Assembly: GCA_050124795.1 (NCBI GenBank)
Contig: JASFEO010000003.1
Span: 15,622 to 79,621, forward strand
DNA length: 64,000 bases
Direction of reading: 5' to 3'
Source: Candidatus Pacearchaeota archaeon
GTDB taxonomy: Archaea; Nanobdellota; Nanobdellia; Pacearchaeales; GW2011-AR1
Shown here: positions 7,846 to 58,942 of the stretch, one piece after another
Position numbering within the stretch: position 1 is the stretch's first letter
Layout: the number at the start of each line of letters is the position of its first letter
Notes under the pieces: model-generated
Databases searched by the model: none
Told to the model about the DNA's origin: nothing
The model's input: the letters and a program-made list of their open reading frames with translations, nothing else
Translations under genes and position numbers: made by a program

Positions 7846-9048
7846 ATGAAACAAATACCAGAACTAAATATTGGAGTTGTAGGGCATATTGATCATGGAA
7901 AGACAACTTTACTTGGAAGGCTGACTGGAAAATTTACTGACACGCATTCTGAAGAATTAAAACGTGGGATAACAATAAAACTTGGTTATGCAGATATTTT
8001 AATTTCAAAAAATAAAGATAATTTTACAACTGAAAAGAAAGGTGAACCAGTTCGATATATTAGTTTTATCGACGCGCCGGGTCATGAGATGTTAATGGCA
8101 ACAATGCTTTCAGGAGCCGCGATTATTGACGGAGCAATTTTAGTTGTTGCTGCAAATGAGGGAATCAAGCCCCAGACAAAAGAGCACTTCATGGCTTTGC
8201 AGGCAAAAAAAATCAAGAATATAATTATTGTTCAAAATAAAATTGATTTAGTTACAAAAGAAGAGGCTTTGGAAAATTATAAAAAAATTAAGGAGTTTGT
8301 AAGGGGGAGCGCGGCAGAGAATTCTCCTGTTATCCCGATTTCTGCTCAGCAAGGAATTAATATTGACAAACTTTTAGAAGAATTAACTAAATTTGAAATT
8401 CCCAAAAAAGATGTTGATGCAGAACCGGTTTTTTTAGTTGCAAGGAGTTTTGATATAAATAAGCCCGGGGGGGAGATTGAAAAATTAAACGGGGGTGTTC
8501 TTGGGGGGATTTTAAAAAAAGGAAAATTAAAAGTAGGTGAGAAAATAGAAATTAAGCCGGGGTTAAGTTCTAAAAAAAATAATCAATTAACTTATGAAAC
8601 TCTTTACACGAAAATTTTGTCTTTGCATAAGGGAAATAAAAATGTGAAGGAGGTCCTGCCGGGGGCGAGCATTTCAATTGAAACAGAACTTGACTCGTAT
8701 TTAACAAAAACAGATTCTCTGACTGGCTGCATTGTTGGAAAAAAAGAAACATTGCCCGAGGCGACAAATAAAGTAAAATTAAAAACAGAACTTTTCAAGG
8801 AGGCGCTTGGAACAGGGGAAGAAAAAAAGATTGAAGAAATTAAAACAAAGGAAATGCTCATGCTTAGTGTTAACACAACAATTACCGTCGGAACAGTTGA
8901 AAAAATCAAAGACGATATTGTTGAACTTTATTTAAACATCCCAATTGTTGCTTTAGAAAAGGACAATGTAGGAATTGCGCGAAATATAAATGGTCACTGG
9001 AGATTAATCGGCTGGGGCGAAGTGGTTGGGGAGCGGGCAATTAGATAA
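7846..9048 (+). CDS. eif2g: translation initiation factor aIF2 gamma
   Basis: GHIDHGKTT, HSEELKRGITIKLGY, DAPGHE, QNKID, RSFDINKPG, WRLIGWG. Confidence 0.97.
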   Translation: MKQIPELNIGVVGHIDHGKTTLLGRLTGKFTDTHSEELKRGITIKLGYADILISKNKDNFTTEKKGEPVRYISFIDAPGHEMLMATMLSGAAIIDGAILVVAANEGIKPQTKEHFMALQAKKIKNIIIVQNKIDLVTKEEALENYKKIKEFVRGSAAENSPVIPISAQQGINIDKLLEELTKFEIPKKDVDAEPVFLVARSFDINKPGGEIEKLNGGVLGGILKKGKLKVGEKIEIKPGLSSKKNNQLTYETLYTKILSLHKGNKNVKEVLPGASISIETELDSYLTKTDSLTGCIVGKKETLPEATNKVKLKTELFKEALGTGEEKKIEEIKTKEMLMLSVNTTITVGTVEKIKDDIVELYLNIPIVALEKDNVGIARNINGHWRLIGWGEVVGERAIR

Positions 9049-9209
9049 ATTAAGGGAAATTTCTCATCCAAAAAATTTATAAATGATTTAATTTTAAAAA
9101 ATCTGTAAGACAAGAGAAACTAAATTAAAGATTATTAAATTCTCTATTTTGAAAATAGCAAATGACAATAAAAAAATTAAATTTGAAAAACTTAGTGAAG
9201 GTAATTTAA

Positions 9210-9935
9210 ATGGATATGCCAACAGATATGCAGCACCAGGCAATGGGTTATGACAGAACAGCGACGATGTTTTCCCCTGAGGGAACAATTTTGCAGGTTG
9301 AGTATGCGCAAAAAACTGTGAGACTTGGAGCGTCAAGTGTTGGGATGGTTTGTTCTGATGGCGCAATAATTATTGCTGACAAAAGAATTACTGATAAACT
9401 TGTTACACTTGAATCAACTTACAGAATTTATGAAATTGATTCTCACATTATTGCGAGCGCTGCAGGAATTGTTTCAGATGCAAGGGTTTTAATTGAAAGA
9501 GCGCAGGTCCAGGCACAGCAGCACAGGGTTACTTATGATTCGCCAATTGAACCGGAATTAATTATTAAGGATATTTCAAATGTAAAACAGCAGTTCAGCC
9601 AATACGGAGGAGCAAGGCCTTTCGGGGTTTCATTAATGGTTGCAGGAATTAACGGAAGTAAAGCAGAACTTTTCACAAGCGACATTACTGGAAATTATTT
9701 GTCCTATCATGCAAATGCAATCGGGGAAAACGACGAGAAGATAAAAGAAAAGTTAAGGGAAAAGTATAAACAAGATTTGACAATGAAGAAAGGTGCTAAG
9801 TTAATTATTGATATTTTAAAGGAAATGCAAGGGACAAAGTTTGACTTGAACAGGCTGGAACTTGCATATTTAGAAAAACAAAATGCAAGGTTAAAAAGAA
9901 TTGAGGGAGAAAAAATTAAGGAGTTTGTAAAGTGA
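9210..9935 (+). CDS. psmA: proteasome subunit alpha
   Basis: GYDRTATMFSPEG..QVEYA; GGARPFGVSL. Confidence 0.97.
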   Translation: MDMPTDMQHQAMGYDRTATMFSPEGTILQVEYAQKTVRLGASSVGMVCSDGAIIIADKRITDKLVTLESTYRIYEIDSHIIASAAGIVSDARVLIERAQVQAQQHRVTYDSPIEPELIIKDISNVKQQFSQYGGARPFGVSLMVAGINGSKAELFTSDITGNYLSYHANAIGENDEKIKEKLREKYKQDLTMKKGAKLIIDILKEMQGTKFDLNRLELAYLEKQNARLKRIEGEKIKEFVK

Positions 9936-9939
9936 GATT

Positions 9940-10239
9940 ATGGTAAATTTAGATCATGGAATTAGTAGTGAACCAATTGAACCAAAGGAGTATAATTTTA
10001 AAAAGAAGATAATTACTTCATTAGTCGTCCTTGGAACTTATGTTGCAATGGCAAGTAATTCTACTTTCTTCTTTACTTTAGACCGTTTGATAAAAGAACA
10101 TTCAAGAGAGGAGATAAATATAGAGGTTAATTCTGAGGATTCTGTTTTAAGGGGTTTTGCAAAGTATTCGATGTTTATCCCGGGAAAATTAGGGAAAAAT
10201 CTAGCATATTATGTTTTTGACAAGGAGGACAGAAATTAA
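9940..10239 (+). CDS. hypothetical protein with one hydrophobic segment (operon insert)
   Basis: ORF between psmA and SBDS. Confidence 0.65.
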   Translation: MVNLDHGISSEPIEPKEYNFKKKIITSLVVLGTYVAMASNSTFFFTLDRLIKEHSREEINIEVNSEDSVLRGFAKYSMFIPGKLGKNLAYYVFDKEDRN

Positions 10240-10240
10240 A

Positions 10241-10561
10241 ATGAAATTTTTAGGATTAGATTTTTATTGGGATAATTTTGGAATTGAAACTCCCAGTGGA
10301 GAAGCAATGATATTTTTTCCTTTTCCAAATATGCGAAGATATGAAGAGATTGTTATTACTTCGACTAAAAAAGAAAGTGGAAAAATTAAACATAAATCCA
10401 AACTAAAATATAGGTTTAAATCTCACAGAGACCCTTTATCAGTTGGTTTAGCAAGAGAGGTTTCTGCAAAACAATTATGTGAAAATAATTGGGGATTTTT
10501 ACAAGACAAAAATATAGGAGAAAAAGTAACTTCGCAAGAATACTTATTTAGTAAATATTAA
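10241..10561 (+). CDS. hypothetical protein (operon insert)
   Basis: GGAGG upstream; TAAAATG junctions at both ends. Confidence 0.65.
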   Translation: MKFLGLDFYWDNFGIETPSGEAMIFFPFPNMRRYEEIVITSTKKESGKIKHKSKLKYRFKSHRDPLSVGLAREVSAKQLCENNWGFLQDKNIGEKVTSQEYLFSKY

Positions 10562-10562
10562 A

Positions 10563-11234
10563 ATGACATCAACTATTGCAAGAATAAGAAAATCAGGATT
10601 GAATTTTGAAATCAGGGTTGACTTGGATGATGCATTAAAACTAAAAAAAGATGAAGTTTCAGCAATTGATGTTGGGGGGGATAAGGTTTTTTCTGATATA
10701 AAAAAAGGTTTTGTTGCAGGAAATTCTGATTTGGAACTTGCATTCGGGACAACTGATATTCATGAGATTGCAAAGAGGATAATTAAGGAAGGTGAAGTGC
10801 AGACGACTCAGGAACATAGAGACGAGGAAAGAGAAAAAAAGGTAAGGCAGGTTGTGAATTTTTTGGCTGCCAATGCAATCGACCCTCAGACGAAAAATCC
10901 TGTTTCACAGTCGAGAATTGAAAGCGCATTAAAGGACGCGCATGTTAATATTAAGAATGTTCCAGTTGAAAATCAGATTAAGGAAATTGTCGAAGCAGTC
11001 TCAAAGGTTATCCCAATAAAATTAGAAATGAAAAAGGTGAAAATCACAATTCCTGCAATGCACACTGGTCGGGCTTATGGAGTTGTTTCACAATATAAGG
11101 AAAAAGAAAACTGGCTTGACAATGGAAATTTGGAAGTAGTGGTTTCTGTTCCAGCGGGGATAATTATGGATTTTTATGATAAATTAAATAATGTAACACA
11201 CGGCAGTGCAATTACTGAAGAGGTTAATGATTAA
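10563..11234 (+). CDS. ribosome maturation factor SBDS/Sdo1
   Basis: ARI..FEI.VD; AFGTTD..EIAKRIIKEGEVQ; IDPQTKNP. Confidence 0.95.
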   Translation: MTSTIARIRKSGLNFEIRVDLDDALKLKKDEVSAIDVGGDKVFSDIKKGFVAGNSDLELAFGTTDIHEIAKRIIKEGEVQTTQEHRDEEREKKVRQVVNFLAANAIDPQTKNPVSQSRIESALKDAHVNIKNVPVENQIKEIVEAVSKVIPIKLEMKKVKITIPAMHTGRAYGVVSQYKEKENWLDNGNLEVVVSVPAGIIMDFYDKLNNVTHGSAITEEVND

Positions 11235-11235
11235 A

Positions 11236-11403
11236 ATGCCAGACTCAAAATATTTTAGACCTGAACCTATCGATGTTCCGCAAAGAGAAGAGGACAATTA
11301 TGTCGAAAAAGAGACTCCTTCTGATAAACTTTTTTTAGATGAAGATCCTAAAGTAAATGAAGTATTAAGATTTGGAGAATTAAATATAAGGAGAGATTAT
11401 TAA
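11236..11403 (+). CDS. hypothetical protein (operon insert)
   Basis: 55 aa, translationally coupled junctions. Confidence 0.55.
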   Translation: MPDSKYFRPEPIDVPQREEDNYVEKETPSDKLFLDEDPKVNEVLRFGELNIRRDY

Positions 11404-11667
11404 ATGAAACCAGAATATTTTTATAAATTAACTATCTCAAATTTTGATGAAGAAAACAATAGGATAACTTATGAAACAACAGAAGCGATAACTTTTAATG
11501 ATCCAACTGACGGCGATGTAGGTTTAGAAGAGTTTTTAAGAAATAATCTTATTGATAGAATAAGGGCAGACCCTTCTGTGTTGCCAATCACCGGGAGATT
11601 AGGATTTCTCAGGAGGGAGCTAATAAACCAACAAACCCAAAACTTTAAAAGACAAATTTATGATTAA
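11404..11667 (+). CDS. hypothetical protein (operon insert)
   Basis: 87 aa, TAAATG junction. Confidence 0.6.
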   Translation: MKPEYFYKLTISNFDEENNRITYETTEAITFNDPTDGDVGLEEFLRNNLIDRIRADPSVLPITGRLGFLRRELINQQTQNFKRQIYD

Positions 11668-11672
11668 TTAAA

Positions 11673-12119
11673 ATGACAAAATATGAAAACACACAAGAAT
11701 TTTTAGACAATCTTTATAGTTGCGTTTTTGAGAGAACAAGGTCTCATTTTGCAGATTTTGGCTTAGCTGAAAGAGAGGATTTTATCGGAGAGTCAAGCAT
11801 ACATGAAATTTCACTTAAACCATCTATCGGGGATTATTCTGTTGAAGTAATAAGAAGCTTGATAGAAAATTGTGCTAATCAAGAAAACTATTCTGAAAAA
11901 GAATTAGACAGCCTATTTTCTGGATTTGATTCAGTGATGTTCACAAATGAGGCAGGTCTTTCTCAAAAACAAGGAAGTCTCATGATATCTTTAGTTAAGA
12001 AAACATTACTTGAAGATATGTTAGAAAATCCTGTTGAAATAGATTTTAACAAAAAATCTTATTGTATTGAAAAAACTAATGAAGGATTATCCGTAACTAA
12101 TCTGGGAGGAAGAAATTAA
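11673..12119 (+). CDS. hypothetical protein (operon insert)
   Basis: 148 aa, starts at TAAAATGACAAA. Confidence 0.65.
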   Translation: MTKYENTQEFLDNLYSCVFERTRSHFADFGLAEREDFIGESSIHEISLKPSIGDYSVEVIRSLIENCANQENYSEKELDSLFSGFDSVMFTNEAGLSQKQGSLMISLVKKTLLEDMLENPVEIDFNKKSYCIEKTNEGLSVTNLGGRN

Positions 12120-12120
12120 A

Positions 12121-12372
12121 ATGACAAATGAAAAATACACTTTAGGAAAAAACTCATGCGATTGTCATCCTGAAACATGCCATTGCGCAGATTATGCAAT
12201 TTACGAGGAAGGGAAAAAATATATCCCAGTTTTTGATAGACCAAAAGGAGAACATATTGTTAATGCTTTAAATCTTCTTGATAAATTGCAAAATCAATCT
12301 CAGGCTTCTGAAGAAAGATTAGACTCACTTGGAAATTGTCGGCGAGGATTAGATAATGGAGGCAAATACTAA
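12121..12372 (+). CDS. hypothetical Cys/His-motif protein (operon insert)
   Basis: CDCHPETCHC motif; starts at TAAAATGACAAAT. Confidence 0.65.
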   Translation: MTNEKYTLGKNSCDCHPETCHCADYAIYEEGKKYIPVFDRPKGEHIVNALNLLDKLQNQSQASEERLDSLGNCRRGLDNGGKY

Positions 12373-13043
12373 TGACAAATAGAAAAGTAGTTATTCCAGG
12401 AGAAGTTATTTCCAGTGGTGATGATTTTTTGCCTGGTGAAGGGACAGAAAAAAAAGACAATGATATTGTTGCATTAAGATTTGGTCTTGCTGAGGAATCA
12501 GGAAAACTTGTAAAAGTAATCCCCTTGTCAGGAGTTTATCAGGCTCGCAGAGGAAATGTTGTAATAGGAAATGTTGAAAATGTGACCTTCAATGGCTGGA
12601 TAATTGATATCGGAGTTCCTGAAACAGCTTTTTTATCTTTAACTGAAGTGCCAATGTATGTTAATAAAAACGGGCTGGATGAAGTCATGGATATCGGCGA
12701 CATGGTTGTTGCAAAAATCTGGAGCATGAATAAAAGAGGAGTTGACTTAAGTATAAAATCAAGAGGGCTTGGAAAAATCGACGAGGGAATAATTGTAAAA
12801 GTAAATCCAAACAAAGTTCCGAGGATAATCGGCAAGGAAGGAAGCATGATAAGTTTAATTAAAGACAAAACAAACTGCAATATCACAGTGGGGCAAAATG
12901 GATTTATCTGGATAAAGGGCGAGAAAGTTGATGAAGAGTTATTTGCAAAAAGAGCGATTAATTTTGTTGCTGAAAAATCTTTTATACAAGGTTTAACAGA
13001 AGAAGTTGAAAAATGGTTTAGTGAAAATGGAGGTAAAAAATAA
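12372..13043 (+). CDS. rrp4: exosome RNA-binding protein Rrp4
   Basis: VVIPGE; S1 domain; KH motif KVPRIIGKEGSMI..VGQNGFIWI. Confidence 0.95.
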   Translation: MTNRKVVIPGEVISSGDDFLPGEGTEKKDNDIVALRFGLAEESGKLVKVIPLSGVYQARRGNVVIGNVENVTFNGWIIDIGVPETAFLSLTEVPMYVNKNGLDEVMDIGDMVVAKIWSMNKRGVDLSIKSRGLGKIDEGIIVKVNPNKVPRIIGKEGSMISLIKDKTNCNITVGQNGFIWIKGEKVDEELFAKRAINFVAEKSFIQGLTEEVEKWFSENGGKK

Positions 13044-13044
13044 A

Positions 13045-13329
13045 ATGACAAATGAAACTGAACTTTTTAAGAGAATAAATGAAGCTTATCCTCGCGGGAA
13101 AATGCTTTCACCAACACCCGCCTATTATGAGATTGTTCTTTCTTCAGGAGAATATAAAATTTTAGCAACTTATGAAAATCTAGATGGAACTAATGAAGAA
13201 GATTGGACCAAAGATGAGATTAGGATAAATAATGTTCCCGAAAGGTTTAAAGAACATTTTATTTTTAGAGATTTTGTAGATAAAAATAAAGAGAAGTTTC
13301 CAGAATTAAAAAAGATATTAATAAATTAA
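13045..13329 (+). CDS. hypothetical protein (operon insert between rrp4 and rrp41)
   Basis: TAAAATGACAAA at both ends. Confidence 0.65.
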   Translation: MTNETELFKRINEAYPRGKMLSPTPAYYEIVLSSGEYKILATYENLDGTNEEDWTKDEIRINNVPERFKEHFIFRDFVDKNKEKFPELKKILIN

Positions 13330-13330
13330 A

Positions 13331-14062
13331 ATGACAAAAGAATTCAAAAGAAAATCAGGAAGAAAGCCAGACGAGTTTAGAACTCCGATTTCAGCAAAAG
13401 TTGGGGTTGTGAAAAGCGCAGATGGCAGTGCTATTTGGCAGCAGGGAAAAACAATTGCAATTGCTTCTGTTTTCGGGCCAAAAAAAATGCACCCGCAGCA
13501 TTTGCAGGATCCTGAAAAAGGGACTCTAAGATGTACTTATAATATGATTAGTTTCTCAGTTACTGACAGAATAAGACCCGGAATTAACAGAAGGTCTACT
13601 GAAATTTCAAAAATAATGGAGTGGGCGCTTGAGCCGGTTTTGTTAATTGACAAATACGCAAACATGGTTATTGATGTTCATGTGAATATTATTCAGGCAG
13701 ATGCAGGAACGCGGTGTGCAGCAATTAATGCAGCAGCAATGGCTTTGGCTCATGCAGGAATTCCAATGAAAAATATTGTTTCAAGTATTGCAGCAGGAAA
13801 ACTTGACAAGACAGTTGTTTTAGATTTAGATAAATACGAAGATTCAGAATTTGAAGAGGGCGAGGGTTCAACTGATATCCCAATGACTTTTACTCCTGAC
13901 GGAAAACTTACACACATTCAGGTTGACGGCAAAATTGATAAAGGGCAATTACTCGAAGCAATTGAAATGGCAAAAGAAGCTGCGAAGGAAATTTATGAAG
14001 TTCAAAAACAGGCTTTAAAAGATTCAGTTAAAAATTCAGATGAAGAAGGAGGAGAAAAATAA
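13331..14062 (+). CDS. rrp41: exosome subunit Rrp41
   Basis: GRKPDEFR, ADGSA, VFGP, RRSTEIS, IIQADAGTRCA. Confidence 0.95.
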   Translation: MTKEFKRKSGRKPDEFRTPISAKVGVVKSADGSAIWQQGKTIAIASVFGPKKMHPQHLQDPEKGTLRCTYNMISFSVTDRIRPGINRRSTEISKIMEWALEPVLLIDKYANMVIDVHVNIIQADAGTRCAAINAAAMALAHAGIPMKNIVSSIAAGKLDKTVVLDLDKYEDSEFEEGEGSTDIPMTFTPDGKLTHIQVDGKIDKGQLLEAIEMAKEAAKEIYEVQKQALKDSVKNSDEEGGEK

Positions 14063-14063
14063 A

Positions 14064-14873
14064 ATGGATAAAGTGCAAACAACATCAGACATAACAGCAG
14101 AAAGAATTGTTAAGTATATGGAAGAAGGCAAACGTTTTGACGGCAGGGGGCTTGATGAATTTAGAGAAATAGAAGTCGAGACAGGTGTTTCAAAAAATGC
14201 AGAGGGCTCAGCAAGGGTTAAAATTGGAAAGACTGAAGTTATTGTTGGTGTTAAAATGGATGTTGCTACGCCTTATCCTGATTCGCCTGATAAAGGGAAC
14301 ATGATGGTGACTGCTGAACTTTTGCCTTTGAGTTCGCCGAGGTTTGAATATGGTCCTCCGAAATTTCCTGCAATTGAATTGGGGAGAGTTATTGACAGAG
14401 GAATTCGTGAATCGCATTTTATTGATTTGGAAAAACTTTGCATTAAGGAAGGGGAGAAAGTCTGGACAGTTTTCATAGATATTTATACAATTAATGACGA
14501 CGGAAATTTGTTTGATGCTGCAGGCTTGGGCGCAATAATTGCTTTGAAAAATGCTCGCGTTCCAAAGTATGATGAAGAAAATGAAAGAGTTTTATATGGA
14601 GAATTAACTGATGAAAATGTTCCTTTAAGCAAGACAACTCCGATTTCAATTACTACTCACAAAATCGACGGCAAATTCATAGTTGACCCGACTCGCGAGG
14701 AAGAAGACATAAGCGAAACACGGATAACAATCGGAAGCACTGACGGCGTTATTTCATCAATGCAAAAAGGAGAAAAAAGCGCATTAACAATTGAGGAATT
14801 TTCAGAAGCACTTGACTTAGTCAATAAAGTGTATAAAGAAATTTTTAAAAAGTTAGAAAAACATTTAAAATAA
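14064..14873 (+). CDS. rrp42: exosome subunit Rrp42
   Basis: RFDGRGLDEFR, AEGSARVKIG, IELGRVIDRGIRES, VDPTREEE. Confidence 0.95.
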   Translation: MDKVQTTSDITAERIVKYMEEGKRFDGRGLDEFREIEVETGVSKNAEGSARVKIGKTEVIVGVKMDVATPYPDSPDKGNMMVTAELLPLSSPRFEYGPPKFPAIELGRVIDRGIRESHFIDLEKLCIKEGEKVWTVFIDIYTINDDGNLFDAAGLGAIIALKNARVPKYDEENERVLYGELTDENVPLSKTTPISITTHKIDGKFIVDPTREEEDISETRITIGSTDGVISSMQKGEKSALTIEEFSEALDLVNKVYKEIFKKLEKHLK

Positions 14874-15245
14874 ATGAAAGCTGAAAATTTTACAAAATAT
14901 GAGCAGGCGAGAATTCTTGGAGCGCGGGCTTTGCAAATTGCAATGAATGCGCCTTTGTTAATTAAGATTGAAAAAGATGATTTAGAGAAAGTAAAGTTTG
15001 ATGCTTTGAAAATTGCAGAAATTGAGTTGAGGTCAAATATTCTGCCGATTTCAATTAAGAAACCTTTTCCCGGAAAAAAACAAGGAGCATTAAAAAGAAT
15101 TCCGGAAGTTAAGTTAACTGAAAAGAAAAAGAAAGCTTTAGAAGAAGAGGAAGAAAAGGATATTTCCTCAGAAGGAGAAATCATGGCTTTGGCAAATCCT
15201 GAGGACGAGCGTGAAGATTCTGATGAAGGAAATAGTGAAGAGTGA
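14874..15245 (+). CDS. rpoK: RNA polymerase subunit K (Rpo6) with acidic tail
   Basis: TKYEQARILGARALQIAMNAP. Confidence 0.95.
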   Translation: MKAENFTKYEQARILGARALQIAMNAPLLIKIEKDDLEKVKFDALKIAEIELRSNILPISIKKPFPGKKQGALKRIPEVKLTEKKKKALEEEEEKDISSEGEIMALANPEDEREDSDEGNSEE

Positions 15246-15272
15246 AAAATTATTTAAATAAATTTAAATGAT

Positions 15273-15764
15273 TCAATCTTCATCTTCAAAAAAACTATCT
15301 AAAGTTGGAATTTTCGGCTCCACTATATCATAAATTTCAATCCCTTTACCATTAATTCTTAATTTTCCCCATTGCTGGACTTGCCCTCCATTTTCTACAT
15401 ATTGAAAAAATTCATTATGAAGTCTTTTGTAAAAATCTTTTTTTGACTTTGGAACTTCTAAAGATTCCTCTAACCAGTTTAATAAAATCTGATTAAATTC
15501 TCCGCGTTTAGAAACTTCTGTTAAATATCTTGAAGAATAATTATGTATCACATCCTCTAAACTTTCTGAAAGGTCTTTTCTATAACCATTTTTTGAAAGA
15601 CTTGAAAATGATTTCCAAAATCTGCCATGAGATAACTCATGAAAACCATCTGAAATGAACGAATTAAAAAGTCCTCTCCAACTATCCTGAACTAATCGAT
15701 ATTTAAAATATTCTCTTCGGTATTCCCCAGCCAACTTCCTGCTTGGGGTAAATTGGTTTTCCAT
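15273..15764 (-). CDS. hypothetical protein between rpoK and eno
   Basis: 163-aa ORF with own TATA-like element. Confidence 0.65.
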   Translation of the reverse strand: MENQFTPSRKLAGEYRREYFKYRLVQDSWRGLFNSFISDGFHELSHGRFWKSFSSLSKNGYRKDLSESLEDVIHNYSSRYLTEVSKRGEFNQILLNWLEESLEVPKSKKDFYKRLHNEFFQYVENGGQVQQWGKLRINGKGIEIYDIVEPKIPTLDSFFEDED

Positions 15765-15863: not shown

Positions 15864-17024
15864 ATGGTTGTGATAAAAGGAGTTGATGCCAAGGCAATTC
15901 GTGATTCCCGTCGTGAAAAAACTATTTTTGTTGCAATAAAGACAAATGTTGGGAAATTTTCTGCATCAGCGCCAAATGGAAAGTCAACTGGCAAGAGAGA
16001 AGCGAAAAGTTACAGAAAAGATTTAGAGGGCGACATAAAAACAATAAAAGATTTTAGTGATTATTTTTCAAATGAGCAAATTGAAAAGTTTGATGACCTG
16101 AGAAGAATTGAAGATATTGTCGACAGGCACATTGGAGCAAACACTTTACTGGCGCTTGAATATGCAGTTCTAAAGGCAATTGCAAAAGAACAAAAAAAAG
16201 AAGTCTGGCAACTTATTAATGAAAAGGCAAAAAAATTCCCAAGACCAGTCGGCAACTGCATTGGGGGAGGAGCGCATTCAAACACAGACAAGAAACCTGA
16301 TTTTCAGGAATTTTTATTAATTCCAAATTTAAAAACTTTTAAGGAAAATTATGAATTAAATAAAAAAATAAAATCCAGTGTTGAGACAACTTTGAAGAGG
16401 CTTGACAAAAATTTTAAATCTAAAAAAAATGACGAGAATGCCTGGGTAACGCACTTAAATGAAAAGCAGGTTTTTGAAATCTTAAAGGAGGCAGAAATTC
16501 CAATTGGAACAGATGTTGCGTCTTCAAACTTTTTTAAGAGAAAAAAATATTCATATTTTAATCCGCCTTTGAAGAGAACAGAGGAAGAGCAGTTTGGGTA
16601 TGTTTCTAATTTAATTAAAAATTTTAATTTGTTTTATATTGAAGATGCATTTGGGGAAGAGGATTTTACAGGTTTTGCAAAACTCCTTAAAAAATTTCCT
16701 GAATCATTAATTGTCGGGGATGATTTGACTGTTACAAATTCAAAGAGACTGAAAAAAGCAATTGATGAAAAGGCGATTAATGCAATTATTGTTAAACCAA
16801 ATCAGTGCGGCTCACTTTTGGAAGTTGCAAGAGTTTGCGAAATGGCAAAAGAAAATAATATTAAAACTATTTTCTCGCACAGAAGCGGAGAAACTGACGA
16901 GAGTATTTTAGCTGATTTGGCTTTTGGATTCCAAGCTGATTTTTTTAAATGCGGAATTGACGGCAAAGTTCGTGAAGCAAAACTGAAACGATTGATTGAG
17001 ATTGAGAAGAGTTTGGGAAAATGA
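15864..17024 (+). CDS. eno: enolase (compact, divergent)
   Basis: IRDSR, GGGAH, DFQEF, IVGDDLTVTN, IIVKPNQCG, SHRSGET. Confidence 0.92.
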   Translation: MVVIKGVDAKAIRDSRREKTIFVAIKTNVGKFSASAPNGKSTGKREAKSYRKDLEGDIKTIKDFSDYFSNEQIEKFDDLRRIEDIVDRHIGANTLLALEYAVLKAIAKEQKKEVWQLINEKAKKFPRPVGNCIGGGAHSNTDKKPDFQEFLLIPNLKTFKENYELNKKIKSSVETTLKRLDKNFKSKKNDENAWVTHLNEKQVFEILKEAEIPIGTDVASSNFFKRKKYSYFNPPLKRTEEEQFGYVSNLIKNFNLFYIEDAFGEEDFTGFAKLLKKFPESLIVGDDLTVTNSKRLKKAIDEKAINAIIVKPNQCGSLLEVARVCEMAKENNIKTIFSHRSGETDESILADLAFGFQADFFKCGIDGKVREAKLKRLIEIEKSLGK

Positions 17025-17617
17025 AAAAGTGGGAAAGATTATATTTAGAGGGGAAATTTAAGATAGATAGTTTTGCCCCAAGCAAATTAGTTAAGGGAAT
17101 ATTAAAATACCAAGATAAGTTCGATAATGTTCTGGATATCAGGTGCGGGAACGGAAGAAATTCTGTTTATCTCTCTAAATTCTCAGTGAAGATTGATTCA
17201 ATCGATAAAGTTGATTTGGATTTCTTAAAACAATCTCCAAAAAGTGCAAAAGATAAAATTAGGTTTTATAAGAAAGATATAGAAAAATTTAATTTTGAGA
17301 AAAAGGAATATGATTTAATCCTGATGATAAGAATTATACAGTATATCCCGAAATATAAATTAAAAAAAATTTTTCATAATCTATCAAAAGTATTGAAGAA
17401 GAATGGATTAATCATAATTAGTTATACTCAATCTGGGGGGATTTTTAGCCAGAACCTAAATATAAAAAAGTATAAACATTCAATTGAATTTTTAAAAAAA
17501 TTATTTAGTGAAAATGGATTAAAAACTAAAATGATTAGAAAAGGTTGTGAAAATACTACTCATGTTCCTTATAAATGCAAAGTAAAAACATATGAATTAA
17601 TTTTGATAAAAAAATAA
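17021..17617 (+). CDS. class I SAM-dependent methyltransferase (TehB-like)
   Basis: VLDIRCGNGRN motif I with G to R change; YDLI; LKKNG. Confidence 0.75.
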   Translation: MKKWERLYLEGKFKIDSFAPSKLVKGILKYQDKFDNVLDIRCGNGRNSVYLSKFSVKIDSIDKVDLDFLKQSPKSAKDKIRFYKKDIEKFNFEKKEYDLILMIRIIQYIPKYKLKKIFHNLSKVLKKNGLIIISYTQSGGIFSQNLNIKKYKHSIEFLKKLFSENGLKTKMIRKGCENTTHVPYKCKVKTYELILIKK

Positions 17618-23141: not shown

Positions 23142-26132
23142 ATGGTAAGGGAGAAAAGAGACCTTATTTATTTAAACCCAAACGAATTAAAATTATTTAA
23201 ATTCTTAAGATTAAATTCTGCTGAAATCTCGAATTGGCCTTCCTTGAAAGATATAACAAAAAAATTTAAGATTCCTGAAAAAAAAGCAAAAAGTTTAATA
23301 TCCTCGTTAAGAAGAACAGATGGAATTACATTATCTTCTGAAACAAAAAAATTAGGAGATGAAATAATAACAAGATATGGTTTAACACCTGAAACTATCG
23401 GGGTCTTAGTTAAATCAGGGGAATCAAATAGTCAAAAGGAATTTAATTATTGCTCATTATATCTTGGAAAACCTTCTTTTGGAACTAAAGCATTTGATGA
23501 AAGATATACAATGAAAGGGCTTGCTTTAGCATTAGAGGTTAATGGATTAGCAAAAGAGATTCAGGAAGTAATTATTCAGGGGGGGATAATCCCGACTGTA
23601 CCTCCTTTTTCTTCTGTAAGTTATTTAACTGCTTTAAAATTTTTAAGCCAAATAGATAGAACCTCCGACAGAAAAAGTATCTCCGAAGAAATGCTTGAAG
23701 AAGAAATAACTACTGAATTTGAAAGAGACTTTTACAATAAATTTGTTAACAATGATAAAAAGAAAAAAATCACCTCCCTTACAGAAGCTTTTAGTGCTGC
23801 AGAAGAACAAATTTCTACGTTAATGAATGCACTCCCCGAAGAGACTGTTTTAAGAATGCAATTAGGTCATGAAGAAAGAGAGAATATCCGTTTTTTAGAA
23901 CAGGCGCAAATTCAAGGATTTGCTAAGAAAAAAACAAAGAGAATTAAAGCAATGAAAGAGGATTTAATTCAGGATAGTGAAATTGCCTACGCAAAGTCAT
24001 ATGGGCTGGCAGCTAAACAATTTATTTTAGAAAAAATTTCTTCTTCAGAAGCATTAAAGAGTAAAATTGGGGAGAAAAAAAGAGATTATATTAAAAGAAT
24101 TGAGAAAAAATTCTTAGACGCTAAAAAGATAGGGGGAAAATTAGATTTAATATGGGGGGGCTATCCTCTTGCAAGAACAAGCGAAGTATCTTTAGAAACA
24201 ATCTGGGAAAAAGCAAAGGAAGAAGCTTTTAGGTATAGCTATCACTGGAGTAAGAGGGATCAAAAAAGGATAGGGATGCAGGCAAAAGAATTAGAAGACG
24301 AACTGGAAAAAATTCCTAAACAAAAAAGGGATTTAGAATCAAGAGTCGAAGATATAGAGGAGACTGAAAGCTGGACAAAACAACTTCTTGGGGGGGATAG
24401 GGCAGCCATAACCTGGTTCACCAGACAATATCCTGTTGATGCAGATTACGCAGAATTCGGATGGAAAAAAGTAAAAGATAAGTTTACTAAACATTTTTTT
24501 AACTGGCACATTTCAAATCCAACAGTTATTCATGTATCCCCCAGAAAAAAAGTTACTCTCGATACAGGGATTGTAACGAATGTAAAAACAAAAGAAAAAG
24601 ATACAGCAGAAGTAGAATACCGAATTCATTCAGATGGAAAAAAGAAAGTAATGATGATTGAAAATATAAATCATATTTCTTCAAATGATATTCCTGCAAA
24701 AGCCATTAATGCTGCAAAACAACTTATGAATTATGAAACTACTGTTTTAAAGAAACTTTATGAAAAAGAGATCAAGATGGTTCAACCAGATATTGTTCTT
24801 TTGGGGGCTCATTTAAGTGGGGGTTTTAGAGCAATGCCTTGGTTTAAAGAATCAGAGCAATTAATTGAAGGAGAGTTTGTTGGTGCACAGGATATTAGTT
24901 GGTTAATTAACCTTCCAACACTCCAATCTATCCCCCATCTGGAATGGCTCACAGCCCATCAATTTAGAAATTGGGATGTTAAAAGATATTTAAAAGGCCC
25001 CTATGCTTCTGCAGCAATTGCCCATATAGAAGATAACGAAGGAGTTAATAAATTTTCCATAATGGATAATGGGTTTTTAGTTGAGGCAGGCAAATTAGCC
25101 GAGCAAATTGAAACATACAGAGATGAATTAAGAGATAAATCCCTTGATAAAGAAACGCGCTCAAAAATTTTTGGATTAATAAAAGAAGCTAAACAAAAAG
25201 TTAAAGCAAATTTCAAAAAAATAGAGGCTGCCGGGGATTTTCACTTAGGTTCTCCGGATCAATGGGAAAGATATAGTAAAGATCAATTAATTAAAGCCGC
25301 CCAATCATATCAAAAAAGAAAAGGTCTTCCAAATATTGTTTGTTATGATGAAATATTAAATGGTGTTGAAGAAAGAATTTTTAAATCTTCTACAAGATAC
25401 CTTGGCGGGATTCCCCAAAAGTTTGAAAGGCAAGTTATTACGCCAATCTTAGAATCTGAAAATCTTTCTAATGAAGAAAAAGCAAGATTGATCGCAAAAG
25501 AGAGCATGGCTAATCTTAGGTCGATACCTATTCATAATATGTCTGATCAAAAAGATGCATTTAGATGGCTGTGCAAACCTTATTTGGATAGAATTCTTGA
25601 AAATAATGGACTTTTAGTTCTTACAAGTGGGAATCATGCAAATCAATCACAGAGATTAGCTGACGAAGCTCAGGAACTTGCAAATCAGTTTGACAAGGAA
25701 TTAATATATGACCGATTCAATAAGCAAGGAAAGATTCATGTTCATTCAGGAAAAGGCAATCCTGTTGGAGTCGGGACAATAAGATTAGGTGGAAATGCTC
25801 AGCAAAAGTTATTCACAATTCATAAAATGCCAGAAAGAATGGATGAAGGTTATGGGGGGGCATTGCATTTAAGAAAAGGGAAAAATGATGCAGATATAAT
25901 TGTATACGGAGATAGACATCATCCTATAGCGTGGTATGCGGATGGACATCTTGGAACTCTTCATCCAGGAATGGAGCCTATTAATACATATGTTCCCTTG
26001 ATAGGAAAGCCTGCAGGAATTCATGGAATTAATAATATTTTTTATGACCCTGATAAAAGAGGGATATACCAAGTAGATTTTATTTTAGATGATGCCCTTG
26101 AAAAGATTATTGAAGCTGAGAATATAATTTAA
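23142..26132 (+). CDS. large protein: N-terminal HTH-like region, coiled coil, C-terminal calcineurin-like metallophosphoesterase
   Basis: AAGDFHLG, CYDEILNG, TSGNH, TIH and YGDRH motifs. Confidence 0.65.
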   Translation: MVREKRDLIYLNPNELKLFKFLRLNSAEISNWPSLKDITKKFKIPEKKAKSLISSLRRTDGITLSSETKKLGDEIITRYGLTPETIGVLVKSGESNSQKEFNYCSLYLGKPSFGTKAFDERYTMKGLALALEVNGLAKEIQEVIIQGGIIPTVPPFSSVSYLTALKFLSQIDRTSDRKSISEEMLEEEITTEFERDFYNKFVNNDKKKKITSLTEAFSAAEEQISTLMNALPEETVLRMQLGHEERENIRFLEQAQIQGFAKKKTKRIKAMKEDLIQDSEIAYAKSYGLAAKQFILEKISSSEALKSKIGEKKRDYIKRIEKKFLDAKKIGGKLDLIWGGYPLARTSEVSLETIWEKAKEEAFRYSYHWSKRDQKRIGMQAKELEDELEKIPKQKRDLESRVEDIEETESWTKQLLGGDRAAITWFTRQYPVDADYAEFGWKKVKDKFTKHFFNWHISNPTVIHVSPRKKVTLDTGIVTNVKTKEKDTAEVEYRIHSDGKKKVMMIENINHISSNDIPAKAINAAKQLMNYETTVLKKLYEKEIKMVQPDIVLLGAHLSGGFRAMPWFKESEQLIEGEFVGAQDISWLINLPTLQSIPHLEWLTAHQFRNWDVKRYLKGPYASAAIAHIEDNEGVNKFSIMDNGFLVEAGKLAEQIETYRDELRDKSLDKETRSKIFGLIKEAKQKVKANFKKIEAAGDFHLGSPDQWERYSKDQLIKAAQSYQKRKGLPNIVCYDEILNGVEERIFKSSTRYLGGIPQKFERQVITPILESENLSNEEKARLIAKESMANLRSIPIHNMSDQKDAFRWLCKPYLDRILENNGLLVLTSGNHANQSQRLADEAQELANQFDKELIYDRFNKQGKIHVHSGKGNPVGVGTIRLGGNAQQKLFTIHKMPERMDEGYGGALHLRKGKNDADIIVYGDRHHPIAWYADGHLGTLHPGMEPINTYVPLIGKPAGIHGINNIFYDPDKRGIYQVDFILDDALEKIIEAENII

Positions 26133-33291: not shown

Positions 33292-33410
33292 TTTTTAATA
33301 AACATTTTCATTAATGGAAATTTATAAACTTTTCCTTTTTGTTACTACTATAATGTTATTATTTTATTGCTCTCCAAAACTTATTTAATCTATTTTAATC
33401 TTTAAATTAA

Positions 33411-34487: not shown

Positions 34488-34549
34488 TAATTTTAAAACT
34501 TATTTTTTATCACAATAATTCTTAAAAAGATTATAAAATAAAAAGATTT

Positions 34550-34813
34550 ATGTACAATCCGGATAAAGACATTTTGGAAAAAGACCCTGTTAATGCCATA
34601 ATCCAAAAAGTTCGGGGGATTATGACTAATAAAAGAATGGAGATTTTTACAGAAGATGATTACAAAAGATATGGGGCGATTTCTGAAGAGATTCTTTATT
34701 CAATGGAAAAAGTTCTTGATAATATTATTCTCGATCTGGGGGACGGAAATGTATCTGAAAGGTTTTATAATGAATTAAATAGTTTATCTAAAGAAGAATT
34801 TTATCCCATATAA
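34550..34813 (+). CDS. hypothetical protein
   Basis: 87 aa; leaderless-type TATA upstream. Confidence 0.6.
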   Translation: MYNPDKDILEKDPVNAIIQKVRGIMTNKRMEIFTEDDYKRYGAISEEILYSMEKVLDNIILDLGDGNVSERFYNELNSLSKEEFYPI

Positions 34814-35285: not shown

Positions 35286-35286
35286 A

Positions 35287-35439
35287 ATGGCAGATTTATT
35301 AAAAGAAGATTCAATATTAGGATTAATTGATATGATAAGACAAAGGGGGGCTTATGAGGAAGCGAATTTACTTGAAGGGCTTTATCTTTTTACTAAGGAT
35401 CAAAAAACGCGCGAATATAATCCGGAGGCAAATAAATAA
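35287..35439 (+). CDS. hypothetical 50-aa protein between rpl35ae and rpl10e (not in ORF track)
   Basis: MADLLKEDSILG..NPEANK; exactly fills the junction. Confidence 0.6.
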   Translation: MADLLKEDSILGLIDMIRQRGAYEEANLLEGLYLFTKDQKTREYNPEANK

Positions 35440-38033: not shown

Positions 38034-38038
38034 TTAAA

Positions 38039-55562: not shown

Positions 55563-55748
55563 ATGGTGAAAATAAAAAACAAATATAGTTTATTAGATAT
55601 TTTTGAAGATTATTTTTGGATAATTGGACTAAGTTTAGTTATTGTTGGAGGAACTAAATTTTTTGAAAGAGACCCATTAGGAATATTTATATCTGGTGTA
55701 ATTCTATTATTAGTAGGAGTATTTTTAAAAAGTATAAATAAAAAATGA
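55563..55748 (+). CDS. small two-TM protein between tRNA-His and hisS
   Basis: 61 aa; ATGA overlap with hisS. Confidence 0.6.
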   Translation: MVKIKNKYSLLDIFEDYFWIIGLSLVIVGGTKFFERDPLGIFISGVILLLVGVFLKSINKK

Positions 55749-58681: not shown

Positions 58682-58942
58682 TTAATCAAAATAATTTAAA
58701 TTTATTCTTGTTATTTGTATGCAATCAGAAGGGGAATCGGCGCACGGACCAAAACGAGTTGAACCCTCATGAAAAATTTGCTCATCTTTTGCTCCATCAC
58801 AACCTTCATAAGCATTCCAGCAAATAGCCCCCCAACCTGTAGCTAATCTTCCTAACCTTTCAATAGCCCCATCAAATCCCACAAATACCTCTAAGTCTAT
58901 AAAATCTTCTTCAGTAATTGGTTCTAATACTTCGTTACTCAT
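58682..58942 (-). CDS. hypothetical Cys-containing protein between rpl7ae and rps28e
   Basis: 86 aa, four Cys. Confidence 0.6.

What the first reader, a model, noticed from the sequence alone, without database searches (positions are those of the whole stretch)
9936..13345. Housekeeping operons filled with single-gene ORFan cassettes joined at stereotyped stop-start junctions: candidate gene-capture system
Seen: the psmA-SBDS-rrp4-rrp41-rrp42 operon, normally contiguous in archaea, holds 7 unrelated small ORFs (2+4+1). All are co-oriented, with no spacer or promoter. Junctions recur: TAAAATGACAAA at the 11673, 12121, 13045 and 13331 starts, TAATGACAAAT at rrp4, and GGAGGA(C)AGAAATTAAAATGA before both 10241 and 12121. 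Inserts often start like the host gene they precede (MTNEK before rrp4 MTNRK; MTNET before rrp41 MTKEF). Similar inserts occur at dys/decarboxylase, rps19e/rpl39e, eno/rps2, rpl35ae/rpl10e, tRNA-His/hisS and rpl7ae/rps28e. No integrase or attC-like hairpin is visible. Inference: promoterless genes are captured one at a time by recombination at the SD-stop-start junction, giving an integron-like array expressed from essential operons.
Basis: partly seen in the sequence, partly recalled or inferred. Interest (0 to 1): 0.82.

Follow-up and report, generated by a model that had tools for sequence, protein, structure and literature searches.

The report
Swappable small genes inside housekeeping operons
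In this tiny-genome archaeon and its relatives, single small genes of unknown function sit exactly between the genes of essential operons and are gained, lost and swapped even between almost identical strains, like an integron-style gene shuffle without the known integron parts.

Summary
Seven small co-oriented ORFs with normal coding statistics fill three junctions of the psmA-SBDS-rrp4-rrp41-rrp42-rpoK operon, with gaps of -1 to +5 nt.

In relatives whose records are labelled Pacearchaeota, Woesearchaeota or Nanoarchaeota, the same five junctions are either tight or hold other, mostly unrelated small ORFs. Of 289 junctions in 80 metagenome loci, 121 are occupied.

Occupancy shows almost no phylogenetic signal. 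One pair of contigs 99.8% identical differs by an exact 277-nt one-gene insert at a TAATG overlap. Alleles in one slot differ at dS about 0.9 while the flanks differ at 0.04, with boundaries within about 15 nt of the ORF. Four families occur in different contexts.

The proposed mechanism is only partly supported:
- TAAAATG is the genome-wide coupling junction.
- No attC-like hairpin or integron integrase was found.
- Copying of the host gene's start is confined to window inserts E, F and G.

Best reading: single-gene flexible slots expressed by hitch-hiking, swapped by recombination in conserved flanks, and first entered by short-homology recombination at stop-start junctions.

The parts
9210..9935 (+). 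psmA (proteasome alpha), first conserved gene of the operon
   Evidence: tblastn orthologues at 56-73% identity in 18 of the 20 relatives' loci; ORF
9940..10239 (+). insert A, 99 aa, one hydrophobic segment, no family
   Evidence: coding score 30.9; no relative in 20+80+74 loci
10241..10561 (+). insert B, 106 aa; distant relative in the same slot in L201
   Evidence: 38% identity over 102 aa, E 3e-13, psmA/SBDS slot of L201
10563..11234 (+). SBDS
   Evidence: Pfam SBDS_N, domain II and C
11236..11403 (+). insert C, 55 aa, acidic
11404..11667 (+). insert D, 87 aa
11673..12119 (+). insert E, 148 aa; member of a rare family with a confident predicted fold that matches no solved structure
   Evidence: 11 relatives at 24-36% identity among 1.84 billion representatives; alignment A3; AF2 pLDDT 87.9, pTM 0.83; best PDB Foldseek E 0.38
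12121..12372 (+). insert F, 83 aa, Cys/His-rich N-terminus; a relative sits in a different slot (rrp41/rrp42) in L210
   Evidence: 44% identity over 50 aa, E 3e-10; found in 1 of 400 other family genomes, marginally at E 6e-4
12372..13043 (+). rrp4
   Evidence: Pfam ECR1_N, RRP4_S1, KH
13045..13329 (+). insert G, 94 aa
   Evidence: only itself in the 5.8-billion protein index; coding score 34.5 for the ORF as called from 13006, which includes an upstream extension
13331..14062 (+). rrp41
   Evidence: matches in 39 of 41 genomes, own included
14064..14873 (+). rrp42
14874..15245 (+). rpoK (Rpb6-like), last gene of the chain
   Evidence: Pfam RNA_pol_Rpb6, E 8.9e-5, 22.9 bits against a cut-off of 26, so below threshold; syntenic in relatives
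11666..11680 (+). AATTAAAATGACAAA, left copy of the 15-nt direct repeat flanking insert E (right copy at 12114-12128)
   Evidence: D7
13041..13052 (+). TAAAATGACAAA, left copy of the 12-nt direct repeat flanking insert G (right copy at 13327-13338)
   Evidence: D1, D2
35287..35439 (+). 50-aa ORF between rpl35ae and rpl10e, gaps 1 and 0 nt: another occupied slot
58682..58942 (-). 86-aa ORF between rpl7ae and rps28e: another occupied slot
17021..17617 (+).
55563..55748 (+).

Best explanation
The seven ORFs are real protein-coding accessory genes. They occupy 'single-gene flexible slots' at the stop-start junctions of an essential operon. This is a lineage-wide habit of this Pacearchaeota-like DPANN family, not a peculiarity of one genome.

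Shown:
- The slots are bimodal, either tight or filled by one to four co-oriented small ORFs.
- The contents are extremely diverse and turn over with almost no phylogenetic signal.
- Presence/absence and deeply divergent alleles segregate in near-identical backgrounds, with boundaries at the ORF ends.
- The same family can sit in different slots, or stand free elsewhere.
- The proteins evolve under purifying selection.

Inferred:
1. The genes have no room for promoters of their own, so they are expressed by hitch-hiking on the operon transcript. Translation would follow by coupling or from a Shine-Dalgarno-like GGAGG in the 3' end of the preceding gene.
2. Once a filled slot exists, it spreads, is lost or is replaced among related strains by ordinary homologous recombination in the conserved flanking housekeeping genes, as in replacement-type flexible genomic islands.
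3. First entry into a new slot happens by short-homology (illegitimate or template-switch) recombination. It would use the A-rich stop-start motif that nearly every coupled gene in these genomes carries at both ends. Selection then keeps only co-oriented, non-polar insertions.
4. No dedicated integrase is needed.

The direct repeats of 9-15 nt that include ATGACAAA around E, F and G may be the footprint of such short-homology events. The function of the cargo is unknown. Fast allele replacement suggests roles in conflict or host interaction, but that is speculation.
For: Coding reality:
- Codon scores of A-G resemble those of core genes.
- The 764 unique and 646 conserved ORFs of the genome match in GC (0.311 vs 0.321), GC3 (0.229 vs 0.249) and codon score (0.259 vs 0.265). 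The nearest relative's unique genes track that genome's own GC3 (0.179 vs 0.169).
- dN/dS is 0.21-0.70 in 25 of 26 pairs of homologous inserts.
- The E family folds with pLDDT 87.9.
- The three relatives of the L205 cassette are all 91 aa long and align end to end.

Lineage-wide slots:
- 9 of 15 same-family genomes carry 18 other inserts.
- 121 of 289 junctions are occupied in 80 metagenome loci, and 105 of those 121 are filled by same-strand ORFs.
- 85 of 259 junctions hold 101-700 nt in 58 named species genomes. Seven outgroup loci are mostly tight, with 2 of 28 junctions at 101-700 nt and 1 above 700 nt.

Diversity: 143 inserts fall into 115 clusters, 97 of them singletons. Only 4 of 117 inserts hit any Pfam family.

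Turnover:
- Minimum occupancy changes on the rrp4 tree are 26/32/34/24/12, against 28.8/36.2/38.0/26.6/15.8 for shuffled labels.
- 43 of 73 non-independent locus pairs at >=85% nt identity differ in at least one slot (my count of the listing).

Genome-wide: of 293 syntenic anchor pairs between G000 and G020, 102 are adjacent in both, 69 have extra genes only in G000 (126 genes, median 105 aa) and 41 only in G020.

Strain-level alleles:
- L205 and L199 show 4 real mismatches in about 3590 nt, none within 100 nt of the exact 277-nt insert. The empty form reads TTATAATGACACAA and the filled form TTATAATG|GAAAAT...GTTAAAATG|ACACAA. Five more distant relatives are empty at this slot.
- The cassette is not new-born: relatives at 74% and 65% identity exist.

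Flank-driven replacement:
- For L199 against L203, rrp4 is 100% identical (dS 0.044) while the insert is 37% identical (dS 0.885). Identity drops from 37-40 of 40 to 16-31 of 40 between about 14 nt before the upstream stop and the AAAATG of the next gene.
- L191 and L195 are mosaic inside the cassette.
- A two-gene replacement upstream of psmA separates L203 from L199 and L205.

Relocation:
- 3 of 18 multi-member clusters span different junctions.
- The L162 rrp4/rrp41 cassette has a 60%-identical free-standing homologue in the window's own genome on contig C10. The homology runs from ATG to stop only.

No dedicated parts.
Against: - ORF-exact boundaries in a very recent event (L205) are not what random illegitimate recombination predicts. 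This keeps a junction-directed mechanism alive.
- The short homology at L205 is only AATG (7 of 8 nt with a mismatch). Since all junctions are A-rich plus ATG, its use cannot be told apart from functional constraint.
- The L205/L199 polymorphism could itself be a recombination import from a conspecific donor or a precise deletion, so it does not show a primary insertion.
- Homologous recombination in the flanks is inferred from sharp divergence boundaries. No donor was identified.
- The repeats around E, F and G are local and were noticed post hoc. E and F may be old tandem duplicates (z 5.2, marginal among 300 pairs).
- Genome-wide, 25 of 92 genes inserted between co-oriented anchors lie on the opposite strand and many have spacers. 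The neat operon picture is therefore partly a selected subset.
- Gene calls come from my own crude caller. 'Unique' was judged against only two whole relatives plus one contig. The rrp4 tree is a single-gene quick tree. dS near 0.9 is close to saturation.
- Expression was not tested.
Confidence: 0.55

Rival explanations
1. A dedicated capture system that works like an integron. An enzyme recognises the SD-stop-start junction, or a feature of incoming cassettes, and inserts or excises promoterless single-gene cassettes at operon junctions.
For: - Cassettes are single-gene, co-oriented and without spacer.
- There is an ORF-exact gain or loss in a 99.8%-identical background with clean flanks.
- Homology to a free-standing copy runs from ATG to stop only.
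- Families recur in different slots.
- E, F and G are flanked by repeats of 9-15 nt.
- The genome encodes two XerA-like tyrosine recombinases, a serine recombinase, reverse transcriptases and two Y1 transposases.
Against: - Insert 3' ends show no hairpin excess: mean MFE -7.1 against -7.9 for native gene ends, z -0.14 against -0.63.
- No Rfam hit in 9000-15300.
- The IntI model scores 177-180 bits against a cut-off of 265, in two stretches.
- The junction motif is the genome-wide coupling consensus.
- Slots are scattered through many operons, with no recombinase next to the operon.
- Genome-wide, a quarter of inserts between co-oriented anchors are inverted.
- Start mimicry is absent in relatives.
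Confidence: 0.15
2. No insertion at all. The operon ancestrally held many small fast-evolving genes that were lost differentially and have diverged beyond recognition.
For: - 15 of 18 multi-member clusters sit in the same slot.
- Same-slot homologues are only 27-60% identical where rrp4 is 83-100% identical.
- Window insert B has a same-slot relative.
Against: - Synonymous divergence is also about 20-fold higher than in the flanks, with razor-sharp boundaries.
- Parsimony favours a gain in L205, because five more distant relatives are empty.
- The nearest genome has overlapping stop/start at psmA/SBDS and SBDS/rrp4, where the window holds 2 and 4 genes.
- Occupancy lacks phylogenetic signal.
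- Families occur across slots and free-standing.
- Outgroups are mostly tight.
Confidence: 0.12
3. De novo gene birth. The ORFs arise in place from expanded junction DNA or from partial duplications of the neighbouring gene's start.
For: - Most inserts are singletons without any family.
- Their composition equals that of the host genome.
- E, F and G begin with the first 3 codons of rrp4 or rrp41.
- A, C, D and G have no relatives in the searches made.
Against: - The recent L205 cassette has relatives at 65-74% identity elsewhere.
- E, B, F and the L162 cassette belong to families.
- E folds confidently.
- dN/dS is below 1.
- Spacers of 10-80 nt in other families cannot yield ORFs of 150-450 nt without imported DNA.
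Confidence: 0.05
4. Artefact: assembly chimeras or over-called ORFs in AT-rich DNA.
For: All genomes are metagenome assemblies. My gene caller is crude.
Against: - One contig at depth 35 spans 9000-15300 without alternative joints.
- The same architecture recurs in more than 150 independent contigs.
- ORFs of 55-148 codons are far longer than expected at 32% G+C (own estimate of roughly 13 codons between stops, from base composition).
- Codon scores resemble those of core genes.
- Homologues show purifying selection.
Confidence: 0.03

Closest known systems
Integron cassette arrays, including those reported in Archaea (PMC9668308; passages read with 'find')
   Same: Arrays of short, mostly single-gene, same-orientation, promoterless units of unknown function. 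They are expressed from an upstream promoter, have an enormous sparse cargo pool, and are gained and lost one unit at a time.
   Different: No IntI is present; both tyrosine recombinases are XerA-like. No attC-like folded sites lie between units. There is no single attI platform. Units sit between essential genes in many operons, and their boundaries are stop-start junctions.
Replacement-type flexible genomic islands swapped by homologous recombination in conserved flanks (for example O-antigen clusters; concept recalled from memory, no paper read here)
   Same: Deeply divergent or non-homologous contents lie between near-identical flanks with sharp boundaries. Many alleles exist per slot in a population.
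   Different: The scale is one small gene rather than 10-100 kb. The location is inside translationally coupled housekeeping operons, and boundaries fall at start and stop codons.
Phage 'morons' and the small ORFs of T4-type hyperplastic regions (recalled from memory)
   Same: Extra small genes of unknown function lie between conserved syntenic genes and differ between close relatives.
   Different: Morons typically bring their own promoter and terminator, and here there is no spacer for either. The host is a cellular genome. No PHROG family matched any of the 8 cassettes tested.
Diversity-generating retroelements, known to be common in DPANN and CPR (recalled from memory)
   Same: Reverse transcriptases are present in this genome, and the loci are hypervariable.
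   Different: Divergence covers whole ORFs, with indels and all base types. No template/variable repeat pair was found next to the reverse transcriptase in 3.7 kb.

Membership tests
Integron (cassette array with IntI, attI and attC) | Integron integrase: a tyrosine recombinase with the IntI-specific extra domain | tested here: not met
   Two PF00589 proteins in the genome. Both match archaeal XerA best (234.5 and 200.8 bits; cut-off 220). The TIGR02249 integron integrase model scores 177-180 bits against a cut-off of 265, split in two stretches. The genome is 90% complete, so absence is not proven.
Integron (cassette array with IntI, attI and attC) | attC: an imperfect inverted repeat forming a folded recombination site at the 3' end of each cassette | tested here: not met
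   No spacer between ORFs. The 85 nt at 175 insert 3' ends are no more structured than at 271 native gene ends. No Rfam match. The inverted repeats in 9000-15300 are short scattered pairs.
Integron (cassette array with IntI, attI and attC) | One platform: cassettes inserted at a single attI next to intI and read from Pc | tested here: not met
   Occupied slots lie at five junctions of this operon and in other operons of the window. Genome-wide, 69 and 41 syntenic gaps hold extra genes in only one of the two genomes.
Integron (cassette array with IntI, attI and attC) | Promoterless, mostly single-gene, co-oriented cassettes with unit-wise gain and loss | tested here: met
   The absence of promoters is inferred from the lack of spacers and was not measured.
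Replacement flexible genomic island | Non-homologous or deeply divergent content between near-identical flanks, with an abrupt identity drop | tested here: met
   L199/L203 and L191/L195; two-gene swap in L203 against L199 and L205.
Replacement flexible genomic island | Exchange by double crossover in the flanks (donor tracts detectable) | not testable with these tools
   No donors or raw reads were available. Only one run is held, as contigs.
Phage moron | Autonomous unit with its own promoter and terminator, in a phage or prophage | tested here: not met
   Gaps of -1 to +5 nt leave no room. No PHROG hits. The neighbours are cellular housekeeping genes.
Diversity-generating retroelement target | Reverse transcriptase with template and variable repeats, and adenine-specific changes in a short variable region | tested here: not met
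   Reverse transcriptases lie on contig C2, not near the operon. No repeat pair was found. Divergence is ORF-wide and includes indels.

The most novel reading that the evidence does not exclude
In this DPANN family, the translational-coupling junction (stop, one to a few A, ATG) doubles as a recombination address. Any gene flanked by such junctions behaves as a portable cassette that can be copied ORF-exactly into any other coupled junction. This would need no integrase, perhaps working through template switching or a still unrecognised enzyme. Essential operons would then serve as always-on expression platforms for a vast, fast-cycling pool of small proteins: an integron-like system built from the grammar of operons itself.
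Probability: 0.3. Interest if true: 0.9.

Novelty: new variant of a known kind. Interest (0 to 1): 0.74.

Why it matters
DPANN archaea have tiny genomes in which more than half of the genes may be lineage-specific and unexplained. Here 764 of 1410 called ORFs have no match in the nearest genomes. This finding shows where and how that dark matter is kept: as single-gene units wired into essential operons and exchanged at strain level.

If the junction itself directs insertion, it would be a new, enzyme-light route of gene capture and a simple rule for finding mobile cargo in uncultured archaea. Even on the conservative reading, three points follow:
- Housekeeping operons are not the stable landmarks they are taken for in this lineage.
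- The fast-replaced small proteins are prime candidates for host-interaction or conflict functions.
- The E family adds a confidently folded protein with no match among solved structures.

I found no description of this pattern in five literature searches (and the failed). Supplements were closed and most subscription journals are not held.

Tried and rejected
- **Reads.** Only one public run holds the region, as contigs, and it is probably the source sample. One contig of depth 35 spans 9000-15300 with no alternative joints. Contigs drop rare variants, so this says nothing about empty sites or circles. No RNA holder is listed.
- **Source of cassettes.** The L205 cassette family (A1) was found neither in viral contigs nor in genome contigs, nor in 400 family genomes.
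- **Function.** PHROGs and PADLOC gave nothing for A-G and the L205 cassette. The ESM Atlas gave no structural neighbour above TM 0.39 for E. Foldseek against the PDB gave nothing below E 0.38.
- **Homology among the first 25 inserts.** Only marginal pairs appeared: E-F z 5.2, A-L031_94 z 5.4, L031_107-L032_103 z 3.7, among 300 pairs. They are not used as evidence.
- **DGR near the reverse transcriptase.** No repeat pair.
- **Junction logos.** These are blurred because start positions were approximated from alignments. Only the folding comparison is used.
- **False insert.** The L220 '124-aa insert' is the C-terminal part of SBDS. It was among the 143 inserts counted.
- **Tree.** The careful tree search did not finish in time, so the quick tree was used.
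- **Promoter scan.** The sigma-70 promoter scan was not run because it does not apply to archaea.
- **Rows dropped.** Loci with identical rrp4 were collapsed for the tree (133 kept). Gaps of 31-100 nt were left out of the tree states. Duplicate 85-nt segments were removed.

Full report
**1. What is in the window.**
The interval holds one uninterrupted chain of 13 same-strand ORFs: psmA, A, B, SBDS, C, D, E, F, rrp4, G, rrp41, rrp42, rpoK. Coordinates are given under 'parts'.

Gaps between successive genes are 4, 1, 1, 1, 0, 5, 1, -1, 1, 1, 1 and 0 nt. Pfam names SBDS, Rrp4 and Rpb6, and gives nothing for A-G. With a codon model trained on the genome's long ORFs, A-G score 19.7-42.7, about the same per codon as the core genes.

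The window lies in a 1.06-Mb, 38-contig, roughly 32% G+C genome. Named relatives with rrp4 at 64-80% identity are almost all labelled Candidatus Pacearchaeota, Woesearchaeota or Nanoarchaeota.

**2. The repeated strings.**
- TAAAATGACAAA occurs at the four stated starts, plus once at 38035. That is 5 against 0.11 expected in shuffles, and 13 in the whole genome.
- AGAAATTAAAATGA is identical before B and F.
- The F and G start regions share 26 of 29 nt.
- E is flanked by the 15-mer AATTAAAATGACAAA, G by the 12-mer, and F by ATGACAAAT.

The literal observation is therefore confirmed.

**3. Is the junction special?**
No. Among 1030 co-oriented neighbouring ORF pairs of the genome, the commonest arrangements are the ATGA overlap (138) and a 1-nt gap (77, of which 68 read TAAAATG). 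ATGACAAA is the fourth commonest start octamer, at 22 of 1030.

Genes without a homologue in the nearest genomes have tight upstream junctions as often as conserved genes do, 28.4% against 27.5%.

The starts of rrp4 (MTNRK, MTERK) and rrp41 (MTKEF, MTTKEF) are ancestral in relatives. The 18 inserts in relatives start with many different residues, only 2 with MT, and none copies its neighbour.

Genome-wide, adjacent tight pairs share 11.05 of 24 positions around the start, against 9.72 for random pairs. Five of 93 share at least 5 nt after ATG, and four of those belong to one paralogue array on contig C8.

The resemblance of E, F and G to the starts of rrp4 and rrp41 is thus a local feature. 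Three of seven inserts carry an octamer of 2.1% frequency, which is unlikely by chance, but the pattern was noticed post hoc. It could be a short-homology footprint, an old tandem duplication (E against F, z 5.2, marginal) or convergence.

**4.
None of A-G has a tblastn match at E<=1e-3 in the operon neighbourhoods of 20 relatives. Nine of 15 same-family genomes nevertheless carry 18 other small same-strand ORFs that exactly fill one or more of the same five junctions. Five genomes of other families in the order mostly have non-coding spacers of 10-80 nt.

Eighty metagenome loci with rrp4 at 69-85% identity give bimodal junctions:

| Junction | Occupied (>60 nt) |
|---|---|
| psmA/SBDS | 18 of 55 |
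| SBDS/rrp4 | 36 of 71 |
| rrp4/rrp41 | 33 of 71 |
| rrp41/rrp42 | 23 of 52 |
| rrp42/rpoK | 11 of 40 |

Of these 121 occupied gaps, 105 are at least 70% covered by same-strand ORFs and one by an opposite-strand ORF.

In 58 named species genomes, the same junctions hold 101-700 nt in 17 of 51, 22 of 56, 22 of 54, 15 of 50 and 9 of 48 cases. Nine more distant Pacearchaeota-like loci also show occupied slots. Seven outgroup loci are mostly tight.

The window's 1137-nt, four-gene fill of SBDS/rrp4 is the largest seen in the metagenome loci. One of the 58 named loci has a gap above 700 nt at this junction, whose size I did not read.

**5. Diversity and turnover.**
The 143 inserts fall into 115 clusters at blastp E<=1e-4, and 97 are singletons. 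One of the 143, the L220 '124-aa insert', later proved to be part of SBDS. Several of the 18 multi-member clusters are the same population sampled twice. Fifteen clusters stay in one slot and three span different slots, including window F (SBDS/rrp4) with L210 (rrp41/rrp42). Window B has a same-slot relative in L201.

Of 117 inserts scanned, 4 hit any Pfam family.

On a quick rrp4 tree of 133 distinct loci, the fewest occupancy changes per slot are nearly as many as with shuffled labels:

| Slot | Observed | Shuffled |
|---|---|---|
| psmA/SBDS | 26 | 28.8 |
| SBDS/rrp4 | 32 | 36.2 |
| rrp4/rrp41 | 34 | 38.0 |
| rrp41/rrp42 | 24 | 26.6 |
| rrp42/rpoK | 12 | 15.8 |

A single-gene quick tree inflates such counts. 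Even so, 43 of 73 non-independent locus pairs at >=85% nt identity differ in at least one slot (my count).

**6. An empty-site allele.**
L199 and L205 are 99.8% identical. There are four real mismatches in about 3590 nt, none within 100 nt of the junction.

L205 carries an exact 277-nt addition at psmA/SBDS that encodes a 91-aa protein. The empty form reads TTATAATGACACAA. The filled form reads TTATAATG|GAAAAT...GTTAAAATG|ACACAA.

L203 (98.4% identical) and four relatives at about 86-91% identity are empty at this slot, so a gain is the parsimonious reading. The cassette has relatives at 74% and 65% identity elsewhere, all 91 aa long. It is therefore an acquired, pre-existing gene. Whether it arrived by primary insertion or by recombination with a conspecific carrier cannot be told.

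**7. Allele replacement with razor-sharp edges.**
Homologous inserts in one slot are far more divergent than their surroundings, at synonymous sites too.
- L199 against L203: rrp4 100% identical with dS 0.044; insert 37% identical with dS 0.885.
- L191 against L195: rrp4 dS 0; insert 60% identical with dS 0.68.
- dN/dS is 0.21-0.70 in 25 of 26 pairs.

Identity falls from 37-40 of 40 to 16-31 of 40 between about 14 nt before the upstream stop codon and the AAAATG of the downstream gene. L191/L195 is mosaic within the cassette. Between L203 and L199/L205, two whole genes upstream of psmA are replaced. The L205/L199 homology also begins exactly at the ATG of another gene.

This is the signature of replacement-type flexible islands, shrunk to one gene.

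**8. Relocation.**
Besides the three cross-slot clusters, the rrp4/rrp41 cassette of L162 has a 60%-identical homologue in the window's own genome. That copy stands free on contig C10, with non-coding DNA on both sides. Similarity runs from ATG to the stop codon and not beyond. ORF-exact units therefore move between contexts.

**9. The phenomenon is genome-wide.**
The figures below rest on my own gene caller and blastp at E<=1e-3 against the nearest genome (G020), a second whole genome (G002) and one contig of a third.
- 764 of 1410 ORFs are unique, with a median of 117 aa.
- Unique and conserved ORFs match in GC, GC3 and codon score.
- G020's 548 unique ORFs match that genome's own, different GC3.
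- Of 293 syntenic anchor pairs, 102 are adjacent in both genomes, 69 have extra genes only in G000 (126 genes, median 105 aa) and 41 only in G020.
- Between co-oriented anchors, 67 of 92 extra genes are co-oriented. Nineteen of 34 all-co-oriented chains are tight throughout.

In the window, 58 of 101 ORFs are unique.

**10. Machinery.**
- The genome has two tyrosine recombinases, both XerA-like. The integron-integrase model stays below its cut-off and matches in two pieces, so the IntI-specific domain is not supported.
- It also has one serine recombinase, reverse transcriptases on contig C2, two Y1 transposases and no TnpB. None lies near the operon.
- Insert 3' ends are no more structured than native gene ends.
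- Rfam finds nothing in the interval.

By the criteria in the archaeal-integron paper, IntI and/or clustered attC (PMC9668308, passages read), this is not an integron.

**11. What the cargo is.**
E is not a strict ORFan. An exhaustive HMMER search finds 11 relatives at 24-36% identity, with a conserved C-terminal half. The family model folds at pLDDT 87.9 and pTM 0.83 but matches no solved structure. The word-indexed search had found only E itself, as it did for G, so 'only itself' there is weak evidence. The inserts are mostly soluble-looking: 7% have a membrane-like segment and 14% have at least 4 Cys. There are no phage or defence family hits. Function is unknown.

**12. Verdict.**
The specific mechanism is not confirmed: there is no special junction, no att-like site and no dedicated enzyme, and the start mimicry is local.

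My best reading, at 0.55, is hitch-hiking single-gene slots. They would be maintained and swapped by flank recombination and seeded by short-homology events at the ubiquitous stop-start motif, with selection for non-polar insertions.

ORF-exact boundaries in a very young event keep a junction-directed mechanism open (novel case, 0.3). I found no published description in the searches made.

Noticed in passing
G000 contig C8, about 32972-35500 (outside the window): Tandem array of five unique paralogous ORFs (144-359 aa). Their start regions are identical over at least 34 nt (AAAAAAGGAGATAACGCATGAAAAAACTAACACA), which looks like a recently amplified family with a shared N-terminus.
   Followed up: no
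G000 contig C2: 37837-38550 and 818-1533 (L308-L310): Reverse transcriptase genes: one intact (298-aa frame) and one apparently split in two frames. No template/variable repeat pair lies within 3.7 kb of the intact one, so its type (DGR, retron or group II) is open.
   Followed up: partly
G000 C3:922-1704 (L051) and C5 (L052:1453-2277, minus strand): Two XerA-like tyrosine recombinase paralogues in a 1-Mb genome. One is above and one just below the XerA equivalog cut-off. One lies about 14 kb upstream of the window on the same contig.
   Followed up: partly
L203 against L199 and L205, between the 92-aa gene and psmA (L203:2356-3258; L199:3589-4531): Strains 98% identical in the flanks carry two entirely different genes here: 137 + 154 aa against 145 + 167 aa. 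This is a two-gene replacement. The L205/L199 homology also starts exactly at the ATG of the 92-aa gene, with unrelated DNA upstream.
   Followed up: partly
L220, SBDS/rrp4 gap: The 124-aa 'insert' matches the C-terminal part of SBDS in all genomes. SBDS therefore appears split or frameshifted in that contig.
   Followed up: no
window 23142-26132 (+): A 996-aa ORF with no match in G020, G002 or the G001 contig, preceded by a 38-aa ORF with a 1-nt gap. It is the largest unique gene of the window.
   Followed up: no
L045 (G018): psmA is inverted relative to SBDS. A gap of about 1 kb between SBDS and rrp4 has no convincing same-strand ORF, so it may hold an RNA or an opposite-strand gene.
   Followed up: no
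L050 (G031, another family of the order), SBDS/rrp4: A 2.6-kb insertion holds a 393-aa multi-pass membrane protein and two ORFs of about 175 aa whose sequences suggest a nucleotidyltransferase/HEPN-like pair. That reading is by eye and was not tested.
   Followed up: no
window 9049-9209: The only sizeable non-coding stretch near the operon, between aIF2-gamma and psmA. It contains the palindromic AAAAAATTTATAAAT (9070-9089), a candidate TATA/BRE-type promoter for the whole chain. The promoter reading is from memory and was not tested.
   Followed up: no
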